Assembly (NCBI GenBank): GCA_965652295.1
Contig: CBFGTS010000012.1
Location: forward strand, 1 to 64,000
Origin: an uncultured Haloferula sp.
GTDB taxonomy: Bacteria; Verrucomicrobiota; Verrucomicrobiia; Verrucomicrobiales; Akkermansiaceae
Length of the DNA stretch: 64,000 nucleotides
Direction: 5' to 3'
The notes under the pieces were generated by a model that saw only the letters and a list, made by a program, of their open reading frames with translations, did not search any database and had not been told where the DNA came from. Below are positions 2,428 through 10,023 of the stretch, one piece after another. Positions within the stretch are counted from its first letter, which is position 1. Every line of letters starts with the position of its first letter. The position numbers and the translations under genes were made by a program.

Positions 2428-3363
2428 TTACTCGAACTCCACCTTGGCCATGTCGGTGAGCTGCGCGTTGAGGGCTCGGAGGCGCTCTTCGGAGAAGACG
2501 GCCGGCCGGTCGGAGAGGTAGCCACGGATCAGCTTTTCGTTGAGGACCGCGACCGCGCCCTTGGCTTTGGCCGTGACGTACCAGCCTGGCAGAACGAGAG
2601 CGGCGGAGACCGGGATGTCCGTGCCATTGAGGGCGGTGAGCTTCTCGGTGAGCCAAGCGGCATTCCGGGAGGCCTGCTTGATGCCATGGGCATCGGCACC
2701 CATGGGGCGGGGAAAGTGGAGATGGACACCGTCGAAGACGACTTCGTGGTTCTTTTGTGTGGCCTGCTGGTCCGAGGGGAGCTTGGGCTTGCGGCGGGCT
2801 TTGGTCTCGAAGACGAAGACCCCGGCGGGGGTGAGAGCGACGTGGTCGATGTTCCACGGTTTGGCCCCGGGTCGCTTGACTTCCAGATCATGGAAGACGC
2901 GGAGGCCATCGGACGAGAGGCGGTCGAGCACCCCGCCGACGATCTGCTCGCCCTGAAGACCGAGCCTGTGGTTGGCGAGCTTTCGGAGGGTCTTGCGGAG
3001 AAGATGGAAGAAGACCGCAGTCCCGATCACTCCAAAACCAAGGCCGAGGGAAAGAAGGCCGGTTTGAACATAGAGGAGCCACGCCACGAAGCCGGCGAAC
3101 CCGACCATCGTCGTATAGAGAAGGAGATCCGCCATCAGGTGCTCGGTCCGGCTTTGGAGGCTCCAGCCCGGCGGGCGCGGCATGTCCTTGAATGGCCGGC
3201 GGCTCTTTTCATTCCGCACGCGGACCCATCGCCGCATCCAGAAAATGAGCCCGATGATGGGGAGACCGGGGAAGAACAAGAGGAACCAGAGGTTTTCAAG
3301 CACCGGAGAAGATCCTGCGAGGAAAGGACTCGGACGGGAAGAGCGAAGACCAGCCCGGGACAT
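2428..3363 (-). CDS. Membrane-anchored NERD (nuclease-related domain) protein; start uncertain
   Basis: Three hydrophobic segments followed by LGLQGEQIVG..RVFHDL..NIDHVALTPAGVFVFETKAR, the NERD signature. Confidence 0.8.
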   Translation of the reverse strand: MSRAGLRSSRPSPFLAGSSPVLENLWFLLFFPGLPIIGLIFWMRRWVRVRNEKSRRPFKDMPRPPGWSLQSRTEHLMADLLLYTTMVGFAGFVAWLLYVQTGLLSLGLGFGVIGTAVFFHLLRKTLRKLANHRLGLQGEQIVGGVLDRLSSDGLRVFHDLEVKRPGAKPWNIDHVALTPAGVFVFETKARRKPKLPSDQQATQKNHEVVFDGVHLHFPRPMGADAHGIKQASRNAAWLTEKLTALNGTDIPVSAALVLPGWYVTAKAKGAVAVLNEKLIRGYLSDRPAVFSEERLRALNAQLTDMAKVEFE

Positions 3364-3584
3364 GTCGCCACGACCCACAGTCGCGAGTGCATGGAGGCCG
3401 CCGACCGCGCCGCCAAGGAGCACGACGACTATCCTCTGCGCTACCTCCGGCTTGACCGACGGGTGGATGATCCCTCGAAGATCGTCGGAACGATCTTCGC
3501 CGGCGGGGAGATGGAGACGGCGATCAACTCGAACCTGGAGATGCGGTGAACAAGCCGTGCCCGGTGCTTCGGTCGGAGCACGAA

Positions 3585-4891: not shown

Positions 4892-5397
4892 TCAGAGGCA
4901 GCAATGCTTGTGTTTCTTCCCGCTCCCGCAGGGGCACGGCGGGTTGCGGGAGGTTTTCGGGGACCGGACGATGTTATCGGGCCTGATGGTCTAATGAGCC
5001 GGTGGTGGTCTTTGATCATGGAGGTCCACCGCTCGTCCAGAAGGTGGTTCATCAGGATCAGCATCCCCTCGCGAGAGACGCGGTCCGGACTCGCGAAATC
5101 GATGCTCACCCCGCTCATTTCCTCGGCCAAGTCGCGGTCCGAGGGGTCCGAGGACGAGCCCATCCAGCGCAGGTAGAACCTCGGGCTCTCCCAGCCGAAA
5201 TTGACCAGCGACACGAGTTGGCCGTCATGCATGACCTGGATGATCGTTTTTCGGCAGTCGCAGGCGCGGTCGGTGCAATAGGTATCAACGAAGGTGTATT
5301 CCCCGTCCGGCAGACGGGGGTCATCGGCGAGAACGATCGAGCGAATCCTGCACCCGGGTCCGAGAATCTCGCCTGCGGGCATGAAGGGCGTGATCAC
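4892..5397 (-). pseudogene. SEC-C zinc-motif protein with a frameshift before the SEC-C motif
   Basis: Main frame has LPDGEYTFVDTYCTDRACDCRK..FGWES. The -1 frame after about 4990 reads [32 protein letters not shown] (stop 4892-4894). Confidence 0.75.
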
Positions 5398-5470
5398 GAT
5401 TTGAGAAATTCGAGGACGTAGGGGTCCTTGATGAAGTCGCGGATGGAGGACTTGGCGGGTGGAGCTTCCC
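5394..5470 (-). pseudogene. Short fragment of a YhcG/DUF1016 (PDDEXK) family gene
   Basis: Reads SSIRDFIKDPYVLEFLKS*; IKDPYVLEFL is the hallmark DUF1016 motif (from memory); the rest of the gene is absent. Confidence 0.55.
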
Positions 5471-5612
5471 GTGTCGGTGGAAAAGACGTTAGGGATTGGC
5501 GAGAGGGAGACAAGCCGAACGGAGAGAAGTGTTGGGGGAACGTGGAAGCGGGTGGCAAACCGGTTTTCCGGCTGGGACGGCGTTGGGAAGATTGTCTGAA
5601 GGTGGAAAGGTG

Positions 5613-5735
5613 CCCGGCAGGATGCCGGCCACTGCCGGCGGGACGCCGGCGCTCCCCTACAAGACGCCGGCGCTCCCCGGGACACTTTGCCCCTCGCTCG
5701 AATTCGCGGCCATTCGCGTCGATTCGCGGTTCAAA
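5613..5735. repeat. Repeat-rich spacer C: GGAG-type REP-like hairpins and 3x ATTCGCG heptamer run
   Basis: GCCGGCGGGACGCCGGCGCTCCC and a second GACGCCGGCGCTCCCC; ATTCGCG at 5702, 5712 and 5722, ending GCGGTTCAA. Confidence 0.7.
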
Positions 5736-5827
5736 TCTTCTTTCCAGGCCGCGATCTCCGCTCATGACCCGATCCCCCAAGCGGGCCATTGCAGTCGTGG
5801 AATCGCCTGCCTAGCCTCGCGCCGAAC

Positions 5828-6589
5828 ATGCCCGCCACCACCTCACGCCCTGTCGGCAACAAGGTCCTCTTCATGGCCACGTGCCTGTGCGATGCCTTCT
5901 ACGACGAAGCCGCCCGCGCCTCGGTCGAAGTCCTGGAACGCCTCGGTATCGAGGTCGTGTTCCCGGAAAACCAGACCTGCTGCGGCCAGCCGGCCTTCAA
6001 CTCGGGCGATTGGAAGTCGTCCCGTAAGGTCGCGCGGCACACCGCCGAGGTCTTCGCGGGCGATCTGCCGGTGATCGTGCCGAGCGGCTCGTGCGCGGCG
6101 ATGAATTTCCACGGCAACCCCCTCCAGTTCGAGGAATGCCCGGACCCGGCGATCGACTCGCTGGCCCACCGCACCTGGGAAATCATCGACTACCTGGTCC
6201 ACGGCCTCGGCATCACCACCTGGGACGGCACTTTTGAAAAGCCCACCCGCGTCGCCTTCCACCGCTCCTGCCACACCCGCGGGACCCGGACCGGCGAGGC
6301 GGTGGGCGCCCTGCTGGCCTCGATCCGCAACGCCGAGGTCGTCGCCTTCGGCCAGGACGACCAGTGCTGCGGTTTCGGCGGCACCTTCTCCGTGACCTTC
6401 CCGCACATCTCCGGCCGCATGGGCTCGCTGAAGCTCGACCACATCCTCGCCCAGCAGCCCGACCTCCTGGTTTCCGCCGACATGTCCTGCCTGATGCACA
6501 TCACCGGCCTCGCCCGCGTCCAGGGCCGCCCGATCGAGCACAAGCACGTCATCCAGGTCCTCCGCGACACCCTGGCAGCCAAAAGCTAG
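5828..6589 (+). CDS. lutA: L-lactate utilisation Fe-S protein A (CCG domains)
   Basis: FMATCLCD, QTCCGQPAFNSG, PSGSC, HRSCH, CCGFGGTFSV, DMSCLMHI; first gene of a lutABC order. Confidence 0.9.
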   Translation: MPATTSRPVGNKVLFMATCLCDAFYDEAARASVEVLERLGIEVVFPENQTCCGQPAFNSGDWKSSRKVARHTAEVFAGDLPVIVPSGSCAAMNFHGNPLQFEECPDPAIDSLAHRTWEIIDYLVHGLGITTWDGTFEKPTRVAFHRSCHTRGTRTGEAVGALLASIRNAEVVAFGQDDQCCGFGGTFSVTFPHISGRMGSLKLDHILAQQPDLLVSADMSCLMHITGLARVQGRPIEHKHVIQVLRDTLAAKS

Positions 6590-6646
6590 GAGCGGGGACC
6601 ACCGCGCCTAAAGCCATCTACGATCCACCCTCTTCCATCCACCATC

Positions 6647-8041
6647 TTGATCACGCGCCAACCCATCGACGCCTACGCCCGCACGATCAGCGAGGAAAAG
6701 CAGACCTCGGTGATCACCGGCTCCACGGCCAGCACCGAGAAACGAAAGTCGGTCCTGTTCTCCGACTACGAGGACCCCAACGCGCTCCGCCGCCTGGCGG
6801 GAAAGATCAAAGACCACACGCTCCACCATCTCGATCGCTACCTCGAGCAGGCCGAGACCTCGCTGACGCGGAACGGCGTGAAGGTCCACTTCGCCGACAC
6901 CGAGGACGACGCCCGCAACGCGGTGCTTTCCATCCTCCGCGAACACGAGGTCACGCGGCTGACCAAGTCGAAGTCGATGGCCTCCGAGGAAATCCATCTC
7001 AATCCTTTCCTGATCGAGCACGGCGTCGAGGTGCTCGAAAGCGACCTCGGTGAGTTCATCATCCAGCTCGATGGCGACGAGCCTTCGCACATCGTCCGCC
7101 CGATCATCCACAAGAACCGCCGCGAGATCGCCCGCACCTTCCAGGCCGCCGGCATTGCGGAGGACTACAACGACGACCCCGAAACCATCACCCGCCGCGC
7201 CCGCGTGTTCCTGCGGGAGAAATACATGCAGGCGCAGGCGGTCATCACCGGCGGCAACTTCATTTCCGCGGAGAGCGGCCGCGTCGTGCTGGTCACCAAC
7301 GAGGGCAACTCGCGCTTCGGCATGGCGCCCTCGAAGCTCCACATCGCGCTGATCGGGATCGAAAAGATCGTCCCCACCGACCGCGACCTCGGCGTGTTTC
7401 TCAACCTCCTCGGCCGCTCAGCCACCGGCCAGCAGCTCACGGTTTACACCGAGTTCATCGCCGGACCGAAAGATGCCTCCCAGCCGAGTGGTCCCGAGGA
7501 AATGCACGTCGTCCTGATGAACAACGGCCGCACCGACGTGCTGGCCTCGAACTGCCGCGAGATCCTGCGCTGCATCCGCTGCTCGGCGTGCCAGAACGTC
7601 TGCCCGGTCTATCGTCAGGCCTCCGGCCACGCCTACCGCAGCCCCTACGGCGGCCCGATCGGTGCGGTGCTTTCGCCGCTGCTTTTCGGCGACCGCTTCC
7701 CGGCCCTGGCCGACCTGCCGAAAGCCTCCTCGCTCTGCGGCGCGTGCCACGAAGTCTGCCCCGTGGACATCCCGATCCCCGACCTGCTGCTGCGTCTGCG
7801 CGACAAGGCGAAGCGCGCGCACATCCCGCAGGCGGGCGACCTGCCCATGTCGCCCTTCGCCACCCTGGCCACCTCCCCTTCCCTCTGGCGCACCGCGATG
7901 ACCATGAGCAAGGCGATGAACCACCTGCCCATCGAAGTCGCCCCCGTCCGCCCGCTTCAGGACTGGCTCGGCCAGCGCACCCTGCCCCCCTGGCACGGCG
8001 GGGATTTCCGCAAGTGGATGAAAGGGCGCCGGAAGGGTTAG
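6647..8041 (+). CDS. lutB: L-lactate utilisation Fe-S protein B (LUD + 4Fe-4S)
   Basis: KSKSMASEE, ESDLGEFIIQL, PSHIVRP, TNEGN, CIRCSACQNVCP, SSLCGACHEVCPVDIPIP. Confidence 0.92.
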   Translation: MITRQPIDAYARTISEEKQTSVITGSTASTEKRKSVLFSDYEDPNALRRLAGKIKDHTLHHLDRYLEQAETSLTRNGVKVHFADTEDDARNAVLSILREHEVTRLTKSKSMASEEIHLNPFLIEHGVEVLESDLGEFIIQLDGDEPSHIVRPIIHKNRREIARTFQAAGIAEDYNDDPETITRRARVFLREKYMQAQAVITGGNFISAESGRVVLVTNEGNSRFGMAPSKLHIALIGIEKIVPTDRDLGVFLNLLGRSATGQQLTVYTEFIAGPKDASQPSGPEEMHVVLMNNGRTDVLASNCREILRCIRCSACQNVCPVYRQASGHAYRSPYGGPIGAVLSPLLFGDRFPALADLPKASSLCGACHEVCPVDIPIPDLLLRLRDKAKRAHIPQAGDLPMSPFATLATSPSLWRTAMTMSKAMNHLPIEVAPVRPLQDWLGQRTLPPWHGGDFRKWMKGRRKG

Positions 8042-8200
8042 GCGGGCTTTTTCGCCGCAGAGACGCAGAGGAAAGACAGGAAAACACAGAGTTATGGAAT
8101 ATCCGCATCGAGATCTTGGAGCCGCGCTGGATCGGTGGGGCGGGCTTTCTTCTTACCACGGAGGAACGGAGGAAGACGGAGACCACGGAGGAAAATGAAG
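8042..8200 (+). repeat. Two extra left-arm copies of the GxxExxY element (8042-8109 near-identical and including the first 5 codons; 8140-8197 divergent)
   Basis: GCGGGCTTTTTCGCCGCAGAGACGCAGAGGAAAGACAGG...TTATGGAATATCCGCATC occurs at 8042-8109 and 8236-8304; variant GCGGGCTTTCTTCTTACCACGGAGGAACGGAGGAAGACGGAGACCACGGAGGAAAATG at 8140. Confidence 0.9.
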
Positions 8201-8236
8201 GTTTTTCCACAAAGTAGCTGAACGCGATAGGATTAG

Positions 8237-8718
8237 CGGGCTTTTTCGCCGCAGAGACGCAGAGGAAAGACAGGAGAACGCAGAGGTTATGGAATATCCG
8301 CATCAGGAACTGACACACCGGATCATCGGGGCTGCCATCGAGGTGCACCAAGAACTGCGGCCCGGCCTTGACGAGAAGGTTTACGAACGGGCGCTGTGCA
8401 TTGAACTGGCAAAGAGAAACATCCCGTTCGAACAGCAGCCGTCCTACGACATTCACTATAAATCCCATTTCCTAGGCCACCTTCAGCCTGATCTGGTGGT
8501 GGACGGAAAAGTGATCGTCGATCCAAAATGCGTGACCGCTTTCACCCCCGCCCATGACGCTCAAATGCTGGGCTACCTCAACATCACACGCCTCGACCTG
8601 GCACTCCTCCTCAACTTCAAGGTATGGCCGCTTGGCAAGAGACGGATCGTTCGCACCATTCATTAAAACCTCTGTGACCTCCTGCCTTTCCTCTGCGCCT
8701 CTGCGGTAACCAAGCCCG
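8237..8718. mobile_element. Putative minimal element: GxxExxY ORF bracketed by 52-bp imperfect inverted repeats, inserted between lutB and lutC
   Basis: Left arm 8237-8288 and right arm 8667-8718 match at 43 of 52 positions by manual alignment; they abut the ATG (8289) and the TAA (8666) exactly. Confidence 0.6.
8289..8666 (+). CDS. GxxExxY family protein (PD-(D/E)XK-like fold)
   Basis: IIGAAIEVHQELRPGLDEKVYERAL (G-L-D-E-K-V-Y), PDLVVDGKVIVDPK, HDAQMLGYL, LLLNF. Confidence 0.93.
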   Translation: MEYPHQELTHRIIGAAIEVHQELRPGLDEKVYERALCIELAKRNIPFEQQPSYDIHYKSHFLGHLQPDLVVDGKVIVDPKCVTAFTPAHDAQMLGYLNITRLDLALLLNFKVWPLGKRRIVRTIH

Positions 8719-8730
8719 ACCCCACCCACC

Positions 8731-9339
8731 ATGTCCCGCGACACCTTATTTTCCAAGATCCGCTCCGCCCTCGAACCGATCGCCGACAAGGCCGGCCATC
8801 CGGGGTTTGAAAGCGAAGCCATCGTTTCCGACAGCCGGCTCACCGGCAGCCTCCACGAAGCGTTCGAGCGCAACCTGAAGGCGGTGAATGGCCGCTTCAT
8901 GGACTCGCCGACGAGTCTCATCACCTTCCTCAACGAGCAGGGCTGCACGCGGGGTTACTGTGACCCGGCGTTGATGGATGCCATTGGCAAGGCCCTCGCC
9001 GAGGCGGGGATCGAGGTGCTCACCCACTACGACCGCGCGAACTACGAGGACTACCGTTTCGGCATCACCCGCGCCACCGGGGCCATCGCCGAGACCGGCT
9101 CGATCATCCTCGACGACGCACTCACCACCGACCGCCTCGCCGCGCTTTCGCCGTGGGTCCACATCGCCGTGCTCAGTGGGGCGGAGATCCACCGCTCCAT
9201 CCCGGATGCCTTGGAAAACCTCGGCCCCAGCCGCAATGTCATCTGGGTCACGGGGCCATCCAAAACCGCCGATGTCGAAGGCATCCTGATCGAGGGCGTC
9301 CACGGCCCCGGCGAGCAGGTCGCCTACCTCATCGACTGA
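8731..9339 (+). CDS. lutC: L-lactate utilisation protein C (LUD domain)
   Basis: GAIAETGSI, HIAVL, VTGPSKTADVEGILIEGVHGP. Confidence 0.9.
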   Translation: MSRDTLFSKIRSALEPIADKAGHPGFESEAIVSDSRLTGSLHEAFERNLKAVNGRFMDSPTSLITFLNEQGCTRGYCDPALMDAIGKALAEAGIEVLTHYDRANYEDYRFGITRATGAIAETGSIILDDALTTDRLAALSPWVHIAVLSGAEIHRSIPDALENLGPSRNVIWVTGPSKTADVEGILIEGVHGPGEQVAYLID

Positions 9340-9387
9340 ATCCACCGCCGCAACTTCGTCCTCGCCCACGGGTTGTGGGCGTGAAGC

Positions 9388-10023
9388 ATGGAAGCAACCG
9401 CCCCACAGGCCGGGCTGTTCGAAATGGCGGAGCCCTCATCCCAGTCGATCGATCCCGACAACGAGCGCGACGTCGCCCTGATGGTGCGCATCGCCACGGG
9501 TGACGAGGTGGCGTTCCGCGCCCTCGTCGAGCGACACCAGCATGTGGTGGTGGGCATGATCGCCCGCATGCTCAACGACCCGATCGAGGCAGAGGACCTC
9601 GCCCAGCGGGTGTTTCTCCGCGTCTGGAAACACGCCAAACGCTGGAAGCCCGAGGCCAAGTTCACCACCTACCTTTTCACCATCGCCCGCAATCTCGTTT
9701 ACAACGAAAGCCGCCGGCGCTCGCGGAAACGGGAGGTTTCGTCCGACCAGCGCAGCGACGACTTCGGCGCGGAGACCGCGGCCGAGTCGCGGATCGAGCC
9801 CGATGCCGAAACGCTGCGCAACGAGATGCACGACGAGATCGACCGGGCCATCGCCTCGCTGCCGGAGAACCAGCGGGCCGCCGTGGTTCTCTACGCTTAC
9901 GAATCCCTGCCCTACGACGAGATCGCCCGGGTTCTGGGGACTTCGGTTTCCTCGGTGAAAAGCCTGATTTTCCGCGGTCGCACGACCCTCAGGGAGAAGC
10001 TGGCGCACTTTACGGGATACTGA
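9388..10023 (+). CDS. ECF RNA polymerase sigma-70 factor
   Basis: GDEVAFRALVERH, EAEDLAQRVFLRVW, FTTYLFTIARN, LPENQRAAV..YDEIARVLGTSVSSVKSLIFRGR. Confidence 0.92.
   Translation: MEATAPQAGLFEMAEPSSQSIDPDNERDVALMVRIATGDEVAFRALVERHQHVVVGMIARMLNDPIEAEDLAQRVFLRVWKHAKRWKPEAKFTTYLFTIARNLVYNESRRRSRKREVSSDQRSDDFGAETAAESRIEPDAETLRNEMHDEIDRAIASLPENQRAAVVLYAYESLPYDEIARVLGTSVSSVKSLIFRGRTTLREKLAHFTGY

What the first reader, a model, noticed from the sequence alone, without database searches (positions are those of the whole stretch)
8237..8718. GxxExxY gene forms exactly the loop of a 52-bp inverted repeat, wedged inside lutABC: candidate minimal mobile or self-processing element
Seen: the left arm (8237-8288) ends on the base before the ATG and the right arm (8667-8718) starts on the base after the TAA. 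The arms match at 43 of 52 positions, and several mismatches would be G-U/G-T wobbles on one strand or the other. The unit separates lutB from lutC, which are normally adjacent. Known: GxxExxY proteins are uncharacterised PD-(D/E)XK-like proteins and are not classified as transposases. Inference: this is a 482-bp nuclease-plus-hairpin element. It may spread by acting on its own arms. Alternatively it may fold in the lut mRNA into a long stem that hides its own SD-like AGGAG/GAGG and could be an RNase III substrate, analogous to rRNA intervening sequences.
Basis: partly seen in the sequence, partly recalled or inferred. Interest (0 to 1): 0.82.

Follow-up and report, generated by a model that had tools for sequence, protein, structure and literature searches.

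The report
Site-faithful hairpin nuclease cassette in lutABC
A small nuclease-like gene wrapped in mirror-image repeats sits in the gap between two lactate-use genes, and its close relatives occupy, lose and swap that same gap between related bacterial species, which suggests a selfish gene that homes to one fixed gene junction.

Summary
In detail: 43/52 arms abut a GxxExxY gene (8289-8666) between lutB and lutC. The insert is larger than reported (8042-8718): two extra left-arm units lie upstream and are present in independent DNA runs.

It is not a roaming element. All 15 lut-located homologues fall in one clade, and the genome's two other GxxExxY lineages also keep to one junction each. Among 77 lutB-lutC junctions, 19 carry the cassette (at least 9 state changes); others are empty, hairpin-only or relics. 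In a sister genus, cassettes are 96-100% identical between hosts whose lutB is 84-91% identical, twice with edges within about 12 nt of the cassette ends. The closest hosts carry cassettes only 60-71% alike.

Arms match within each cassette, with no mRNA-strand wobble bias (171 vs 171), so the RNA-stem idea is unsupported. The gene is under purifying selection and has a PD-(D/E)XK fold.

Best reading: a junction-specific, homing-like selfish cassette (0.45); nuclease activity is untested. This scan reported the gene-plus-arms class on other DNA at least 12 times. Not found in print in nine searches.

The parts
5828..6589 (+). lutA-like gene (CCG domain); start taken at the first ATG of the ORF
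   Evidence: ORF 5789-6589; Pfam PF02754
6647..8041 (+). lutB (host gene, upstream)
   Evidence: TIGR00273 E 7e-132, 440.3 bits against a cut-off of 444.8; LUD, Fer4 and LutB_C domains
8042..8139 (+). Unit U1: duplicate left arm A1 (8042-8091), a 16-nt copy of the gene start (8094-8109), and a spacer that resembles both a decayed gene 5' end and the outer flank of the dispersed repeat family
   Evidence: 96% identical to A3; distal spacer scores above 299 of 300 shuffles on a gene-start profile; present in X3, X6 and X10 contigs
8140..8235 (+). Unit U2: diverged left arm A2 (8140-8190, CACGGAG words), then an ATG at 8195 and a probable decayed gene 5' end
   Evidence: Alignment; 8 of 300 shuffles reach its score; best match is a dispersed genomic arm at C16:89382
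8237..8288 (+). Left arm A3: outer GC clamp, T-run, tandem CGCAGAG-type words
8289..8666 (+). GxxExxY gene, 125 aa, PD-(D/E)XK fold with intact putative catalytic residues (E29, D68, D78, K80, Q92, Y96)
   Evidence: dN/dS 0.05-0.22 in 13 measurable pairs; GC3 67% against 87-91% in lutB and lutC
8667..8718 (-). Right arm (inverted copy of the left arm)
8719..8730 (+). C-rich leader of lutC; also present in cassette-free alleles, so host sequence
   Evidence: L002 and L003 junctions
8731..9339 (+). lutC (host gene, downstream)
   Evidence: PF02589

Best explanation
A junction-specific, homing-like selfish cassette. SHOWN: one GxxExxY lineage has lived in the lut(/metY) operon across several Verrucomicrobiota genera. 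It is repeatedly lost, leaving empty sites or hairpin relics. In a sister genus it is passed between species at the same junction as a unit. Its two arms are kept alike within each cassette with no strand bias, and its protein is under purifying selection with a nuclease fold. INFERRED: when DNA from a relative enters the cell, the nuclease cuts or nicks the cassette-free or relic-bearing allele at or near the junction, and repair copies the cassette in. Shared outer arm ends give the short homology that explains near-precise edges. INFERRED: the arms are homogenised at the DNA level (template switching or conversion between inverted repeats), and errors of the same process make the extra arm units seen at 8042-8235 and seed gene-free hairpins. 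Folding the gene out of the lut mRNA may soften polar effects but is not the engine.
For: Clade of 15 lut-located genes plus two after metY, SH-aLRT 92. 19 of 77 junctions filled, at least 9 changes on the lutB tree. Insert vs lutB/lutC identity: L113/L149 100 vs 86/97; L029/L157 98 vs 89/83; L154/L159 97 vs 85/86; L030/L154 98 vs 90/88. The closest hosts differ: L154/L157 lutB 93, insert 65; L113/L114 lutB 90, lutC 96, insert 60. AU tests reject 4 of 4 cassette-defined clades on the lutB tree (p 0.012, 0.044, 0.021, 0.0005) and 2 of 3 host clades on the insert tree. Control: windows at 95% or more in lutB/lutC occur in 3 of 120 host pairs, against cassettes at 95% or more in 7 of 66 pairs. 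Empty alleles of 15 and 23 nt lie inside the cassette-rich clade (L151, L163). The other two lineages in this genome are junction-faithful: carA|purA 6 of 39 loci including the top 3; hisS|aspS the top 7 of 80. Arms match self better than cross: 50.6 vs 24.3, 0 of 100000 permutations. dN/dS 0.05-0.22. Fold matches are PD-(D/E)XK nucleases.
Against: No activity, target or expression is shown. The swap signal comes from relatives in one sister genus, not from this genome's own lineage; no empty allele of this strain was seen in four DNA runs. The 7 near-identical pairs are three cassette types, so about five events. AU groups were named after seeing the trees, and most hosts are MAGs. Two swaps show almost no flanking co-conversion, unlike classical double-strand-break homing. 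No swap signal in the carA and hisS sets (distant hosts, low power). Three four-helix-bundle genes in this genome have the same arm architecture with no nuclease domain, so the architecture does not need a nuclease. Close homologues also sit at lutA|lutB (L038) and after metY (L115, L047, L056), and the carA-type family occupies many other junctions, so site fidelity is not absolute. GxxExxY and LutB distances still correlate (Mantel rho 0.45, p 0.017, 14 rows), so much of the history is vertical.
Confidence: 0.45

Rival explanations
1. Passive passenger on recombinogenic arms. Hairpin repeats at operon junctions capture and exchange cargo genes (GxxExxY, four-helix bundle) by host recombination within the arms. 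The protein does not drive spread and is kept for another benefit, such as cutting foreign DNA.
For: Same architecture around non-nuclease four-helix-bundle genes. The lutB-lutC gap holds hairpins of several unrelated word families. Near-precise swap edges fit crossover in shared arm ends. About 60 arms are dispersed in the genome, 13 as gene-free convergent pairs.
Against: It does not explain why each GxxExxY lineage keeps to one junction when arms of its word family lie elsewhere in the genome, nor why the cassette is swapped more often than lutB windows.
Confidence: 0.28
2. IVS-like RNA element. The arms pair in the lut mRNA, RNase III (or the protein) cuts the stem out, and this RNA-level tolerance is the main role of the arms.
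For: Long stem predicted around the gene (duplex -81.6 kcal/mol). Build like ORF-bearing 23S IVSs, which RNase III excises (PMC4990558, abstract). The arms fill the stop-to-start gap in most lut cassettes.
Against: No excess of mRNA-strand G-U pairs: 171 vs 171 (144 cassettes); 57 vs 73 after dereplication (57 cassettes, p 0.19). The sense duplex is not more stable than the antisense one (65 vs 70). Some cassettes put the gene outside a closed hairpin (L150, L184; several loci). No Rfam match at the arms.
Confidence: 0.15
3. Minimal roaming transposon with terminal inverted repeats, as first proposed.
For: Terminal inverted repeats, low GC, patchy presence, gene-free hairpin families dispersed in the genome.
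Against: One copy per lineage per genome: the three paralogues are only 39-43% identical and sit in different arms. Nearest homologues are at the same junction. No target duplication is visible against empty alleles.
Confidence: 0.07
4. A functional accessory of lactate utilisation that co-resides with lut.
For: Long residence in the operon and purifying selection.
Against: Missing from 58 of 77 lutB-lutC junctions. Same build at carA|purA, hisS|aspS and other unrelated junctions. Foreign codon usage.
Confidence: 0.03

Closest known systems
Free-standing homing endonuclease genes of T4-like phages (seg/mob; intronless homing; PMC2988022, passages read)
   Same: Single nuclease gene in the intergenic gap between conserved genes; fixed position; present/absent alleles; transfer between relatives with co-conversion in some events.
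   Different: Bacterial chromosome rather than phage; 125-aa PD-(D/E)XK protein, not GIY-YIG or HNH; obligate inverted word-array arms; some swaps with almost no co-conversion; cleavage untested.
ORF-bearing 23S rRNA intervening sequences (e.g. helix-45 IVS with S23p; PMC4990558, abstract read)
   Same: ORF in the loop of a long stem; fixed site; acquired horizontally, then inherited vertically.
   Different: Lies in an mRNA junction, not rRNA; the ORF is under purifying selection rather than decaying; no RNA-strand signal in the arms; excision untested.
REPIN-RAYT systems (bioRxiv 10.1101/2021.07.10.451892, abstract read; PMC3733652, passages read)
   Same: A long-resident enzyme gene flanked by inverted repeats, with gene-free doublets of the same words dispersed in the genome (true for all three GxxExxY word types here).
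   Different: The enzyme is not an HUH/Y1 transposase; the arms are tandem heptamer arrays, not GTAG/CGTC-tagged palindromes; the gene is exchanged horizontally at its site.
ShiLan homing insertion element (PMC11855218, abstract read)
   Same: Non-splicing insertion with a small nuclease and homing-like history.
   Different: ShiLan is intragenic, in phage, encodes HNH, and no arms are described in the abstract.

Membership tests
GxxExxY protein family (TIGR04256 / PF13366) | HMM score above the curated cut-off | tested here: met
   130.8 vs 35 bits; 124.2 vs 22 bits
PD-(D/E)XK nuclease superfamily | Fold and conserved acidic/lysine active-site residues | tested here: met
   Model pLDDT 95.5. 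Best matches Cas4 SSO0001 Z 8.0 (rmsd 3.5, 101 aligned), BpuSI 7.7, Hjc 6.5. E29, K80, Y96 invariant and D68, D78, Q92 at 90% or more in 46 sequences. Subfamily not resolved.
Free-standing homing endonuclease gene | Fixed intergenic position with filled and empty alleles in relatives | tested here: met
Free-standing homing endonuclease gene | Horizontal transfer at the site with co-conversion of flanks | tested here: inconclusive
   Transfer shown in relatives. Co-conversion in three pairings (about 40-85 nt left, 0 to over 200 nt right) but almost none in two.
Free-standing homing endonuclease gene | Site-specific cleavage of the nuclease-free allele | not testable with these tools
   needs an assay
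Free-standing homing endonuclease gene | GIY-YIG or HNH catalytic domain, as in the T4 seg/mob genes | tested here: not met
   Only PF13366 / TIGR04256 hit
ORF-bearing rRNA IVS | Located in an rRNA gene | tested here: not met
   Between lutB and lutC; no Rfam rRNA match in 5000-10000
ORF-bearing rRNA IVS | ORF enclosed by a long terminal stem | tested here: met
ORF-bearing rRNA IVS | Excision from RNA by RNase III | not testable with these tools
   No RNA holder listed
REPIN-RAYT | HUH tyrosine transposase (RAYT) as the cargo | tested here: not met
REPIN-RAYT | Gene-free doublets of the flanking repeat dispersed in the genome | tested here: met
   13 convergent pairs among 60 arm hits; all three word types have dispersed copies
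Insertion sequence / MITE | Target-site duplication and near-identical copies at unrelated sites | tested here: not met
   Single copy of this lineage; no duplication seen by eye against empty alleles

The most novel reading that the evidence does not exclude
GxxExxY cassettes are a separate class of chromosomal homing elements. Each lineage owns one operon junction. The short gene-free hairpin left there after gene loss is both the nuclease's target (as an extruded cruciform or single-strand hairpin) and the landing pad for precise re-entry. The filled allele protects itself because 378 bp separate its arms. The dispersed gene-free hairpin families would be non-autonomous by-products of the same enzyme.
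Probability: 0.25. Interest if true: 0.87.

Novelty: new variant of a known kind. Interest (0 to 1): 0.68.

Why it matters
PF13366/GxxExxY is a widespread family of unknown function with many noted transfers (PMC3424549, table row read). This locus turns 'flanked by repeats' into a testable life cycle, with natural filled, empty, hairpin-only and relic alleles of one junction and recent swaps whose edges can be mapped. If homing is confirmed, free-standing homing would extend to bacterial housekeeping operons, driven by a 125-aa nuclease small enough to be useful as a tool, and it could explain a large class of intergenic hairpin repeats.

Tried and rejected
Assembly artefact for the upstream arm units: rejected.
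mRNA-strand wobble bias: not found.
Expression or excision: no RNA holder listed, so untested.
Empty allele in this strain's population: no joint skipping the cassette in four contig sets; contigs do not show absence.
A back-joint 8707 to 8249 with 11 foreign letters in X10 (table 5c) could look like a circle junction. It was seen once, at 88% likeness, in a metagenome, and back-to-back arms are common in other organisms, so I did not use it.
Homodimer prediction: no answer, score 0.00; not evidence either way.
PDB sequence search with the 46-row profile: 0 hits at E up to 10. Fold searches do not single out Hjc-type junction resolvases over other PD-(D/E)XK enzymes.
Rfam: one chance-level hit at 5614-5661, none at the arms. 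No sigma-70 promoter or terminator pattern in 7900-8900.
The duplex-energy cross test used windows that cut some right arms; it was replaced.
The double-change count (102 cells vs 27.5 in permutations) is biased upward because arms were cut out by their self-match; it is given only as illustration.
The host tree had a truncated L001 row; it was replaced.
I ran no control of ordinary genes for flanking inverted repeats, only shuffles and direct-orientation scores.
Swaps in the carA and hisS lineages: not seen.
GTAG/CGTC REPs: no mention of these words in the main text of PMC3733652.

Full report
OBSERVATION. The inverted repeat is there exactly as described: arms 8237-8288 and 8667-8718, 43 of 52 complementary, abutting the ATG and the TAA of a 125-codon ORF. 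The ORF is a GxxExxY protein (TIGR04256, PF13366), and its neighbours are lutB and lutC, with a lutA-like gene upstream. The host is a Verrucomicrobiota bacterium; its CarA and PurA are 94% and 93% identical to those of a Haloferula record. The insert is larger than reported. Between the lutB stop (8041) and the reported left arm lie two more left-arm units of about 97 nt. U1 has an arm 96% identical to the reported one plus the first 16 nt of the gene. U2 has a diverged arm followed by an ATG. Both spacers resemble decayed gene starts (1 and 8 of 300 shuffles reach their scores). The U1 spacer also resembles the outer flank of the genome's dispersed repeat family, so the order of events is open. 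Contigs from other studies carry the same structure.

THE ARMS ARE A FAMILY TRAIT. The genome has three GxxExxY genes. The other two lie at carA|purA and hisS|aspS, each inside inverted arms made of different tandem words (neighbours named from their translated sequences, by recall). Of 68 GxxExxY loci, 63 have flanking inverted repeats scoring above all 30 shuffles (six duplicate loci and one contig-edge locus dropped). A larger set gave 152 of 181 at a stricter score. Each of the three word types also occurs gene-free in the genome. An iterated profile of the lut-type arms finds 60 hits, 45 at E up to 0.01, with 13 convergent gene-free pairs. Three four-helix-bundle genes (TIGR02436) have arms of the same build with other words (seen by eye).

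THE LINEAGE IS TIED TO THE JUNCTION. The nine best of 62 homologues found with the window protein all lie in a lut operon. In a 70-row protein tree, all 15 lut-located genes plus two that follow metY form one clade (SH-aLRT 92, quick tree, 121 columns). metY lies inside the lut operon in several relatives. I examined 77 loci with lutB followed by lutC, drawn from family and genus searches. These were not all hits: I fetched 60 further lutB regions from the 129 genus hits and 40 of 42 remaining lutC hits, and dropped duplicates and loci without both genes. Nineteen carry the cassette directly at the junction, needing at least 9 changes on the lutB tree. Of the other 58, 47 have gaps under 400 nt, 16 of them 40 nt or less. 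The rest include gene-free hairpins of several word families, and relics such as L002 (the closest relative) and L178. L150 and L184 have a closed hairpin, then the gene, then a right arm, a mirror image of the extra arms in the window. The carA|purA lineage keeps its junction in 6 of 39 loci, including the top three; the hisS|aspS lineage keeps it in the top 7 of 80. Fidelity is not absolute: L038 sits at lutA|lutB, and other members of the carA-type set cluster at other shared junctions.

THE CASSETTE IS SWAPPED AT THE SITE. Among 171 pairs of 19 filled alleles, seven pairs have inserts 96-100% identical while lutB is 84-91% identical; they belong to three cassette types. Conversely, the closest hosts often carry different cassettes (L154/L157: lutB 93%, insert 65%; L113/L114: lutB 90%, lutC 96%, insert 60%). 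Difference maps put the edges within about 7-12 nt of the cassette ends for L157 and L159. They show flanking tracts of about 40-85 nt on the left and 0 to over 200 nt on the right for L030/L154, L113/L149 and L029/L153. AU tests reject all four cassette-defined clades on the lutB tree and two of three host-defined clades on the insert tree (groups chosen after seeing trees). As a control, 300-nt windows of lutB or lutC reach 95% in 3 of 120 host pairs (634 windows), two of which involve the lutC stretch next to a swap; cassettes reach 95% in 7 of 66 pairs (L153's lutC was too short to window). Slow evolution cannot explain this, because the same cassette is far more diverged than its flanks in other pairs. 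Limits: about five events, one sister genus, mostly MAGs. At deeper levels the gene follows the host (Mantel rho 0.45, p 0.017; the window's gene groups with the other same-genus gene). No swap signal was seen in the more distant carA and hisS sets.

ARMS: CONCERTED, BUT NOT RNA-BIASED. With fixed windows, a left arm matches its own right arm better than others (mean 50.6 vs 24.3; own arm ranks first in 10 of 16; 0 of 100000 permutations). Mismatches that would be G-U on the mRNA equal those that would be G-U on the other strand (171 vs 171 in 144 cassettes; 57 vs 73 in 57 dereplicated ones), and sense duplexes are not more stable. This fits DNA-level homogenisation and removes the wobble argument; it does not exclude an mRNA stem.

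PROTEIN. dN/dS is 0.05-0.22 in the 13 pairs with dS under 2. The model (pLDDT 95.5) matches PD-(D/E)XK nucleases: Cas4 SSO0001 Z 8.0, BpuSI 7.7, Hjc 6.5, all in the range that shows a common fold only. Foldseek ranks SSO0001 and lambda exonuclease first. E29, D68, D78, K80 and Q92xxxY96 are conserved; reading the last as the RecB/Cas4-type motif is my recall. One of 15 lut copies (L121) has lost K80.

MECHANISM. Shown: junction fidelity, repeated loss, unit exchange between species in relatives, concerted strand-neutral arms, and a conserved nuclease fold. Inferred: the nuclease breaks the empty or relic allele and repair copies the cassette in, using flank homology or the shared outer ends of the arms (0.45). 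The main rival is passive exchange through recombinogenic arms, favoured by the non-nuclease four-helix-bundle cassettes and the near-precise edges (0.28). RNA excision as the main role gets 0.15, a roaming transposon 0.07 and a lut accessory 0.03.

COMPARISON WITH KNOWN SYSTEMS. It works most like free-standing homing endonuclease genes of T4-like phages (PMC2988022, passages), is built like ORF-bearing rRNA IVSs (PMC4990558, abstract) and has dispersed partners like REPIN-RAYT (bioRxiv 2021.07.10.451892, abstract; PMC3733652, passages). It fails a defining test for each, so it is filed under none.

LITERATURE AND NOVELTY. 'GxxExxY' occurs in 3 papers, 2 listed. I read the passage in one, which only notes a gene near a reverse transcriptase, and saw only the listing of the other. 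PF13366 is listed as unknown function with multiple transfers (PMC3424549, table row). Searches listed nothing on arm-flanked GxxExxY cassettes (listings only; two returned no papers). The library lacks most subscription papers. I read no supplements, and those of preprints are closed, so a description could lie there. This scan has reported the gene-plus-arms class on other DNA (12 findings; 11 mention homing). A look-up for same-site exchange with co-conversion returned none, though one note reports movement between species of an in-frame form. I rate it a new variant of a known kind, interest 0.68.

Noticed in passing
window 5690-5728 (- strand): A solo arm of the CGCGAAT word family (the word that flanks this genome's carA|purA GxxExxY gene) lies about 100 nt upstream of lutA.
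   Followed up: partly
window 5397-5486 (- strand): A short stretch recalls a YhcG/DUF1016 fragment (recalled resemblance); Pfam gave no hit.
   Followed up: partly
G000 C28:7452-7778, C7:152233-152559, C1:86531-86848 (L140-L142): Three four-helix-bundle genes, each inside inverted arms of other word families, at operon junctions.
   Followed up: partly
G000 C6:25867, C9:70164, C10:69495, C11:1510, C21:58797 and others: A family of gene-free hairpin elements of about 250 nt with 25-27 nt loops, often beside arms of other word families; several copies lie at contig ends.
   Followed up: partly
G000, e.g. C3:67, C4:228991, C5:240772: A dispersed CGCAGAT-word arm family with no matching GxxExxY gene found in this assembly.
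   Followed up: no
L010 and L020, lutB-lutC gap: An unrelated element of about 165 nt with its own terminal inverted repeat fills the same junction, in two tandem copies in L010.
   Followed up: no
L121, between the GxxExxY gene and lutC; L193: metY is reduced to an internally deleted remnant inside the lut operon.
   Followed up: no
window 7200-9400, run X10: One contig joins the right-arm end (8707) back to the left arm (8249) with 11 other letters between; origin not established.
   Followed up: no
window 2428-3423 (-): A NERD-domain nuclease gene with N-terminal hydrophobic segments.
   Followed up: no
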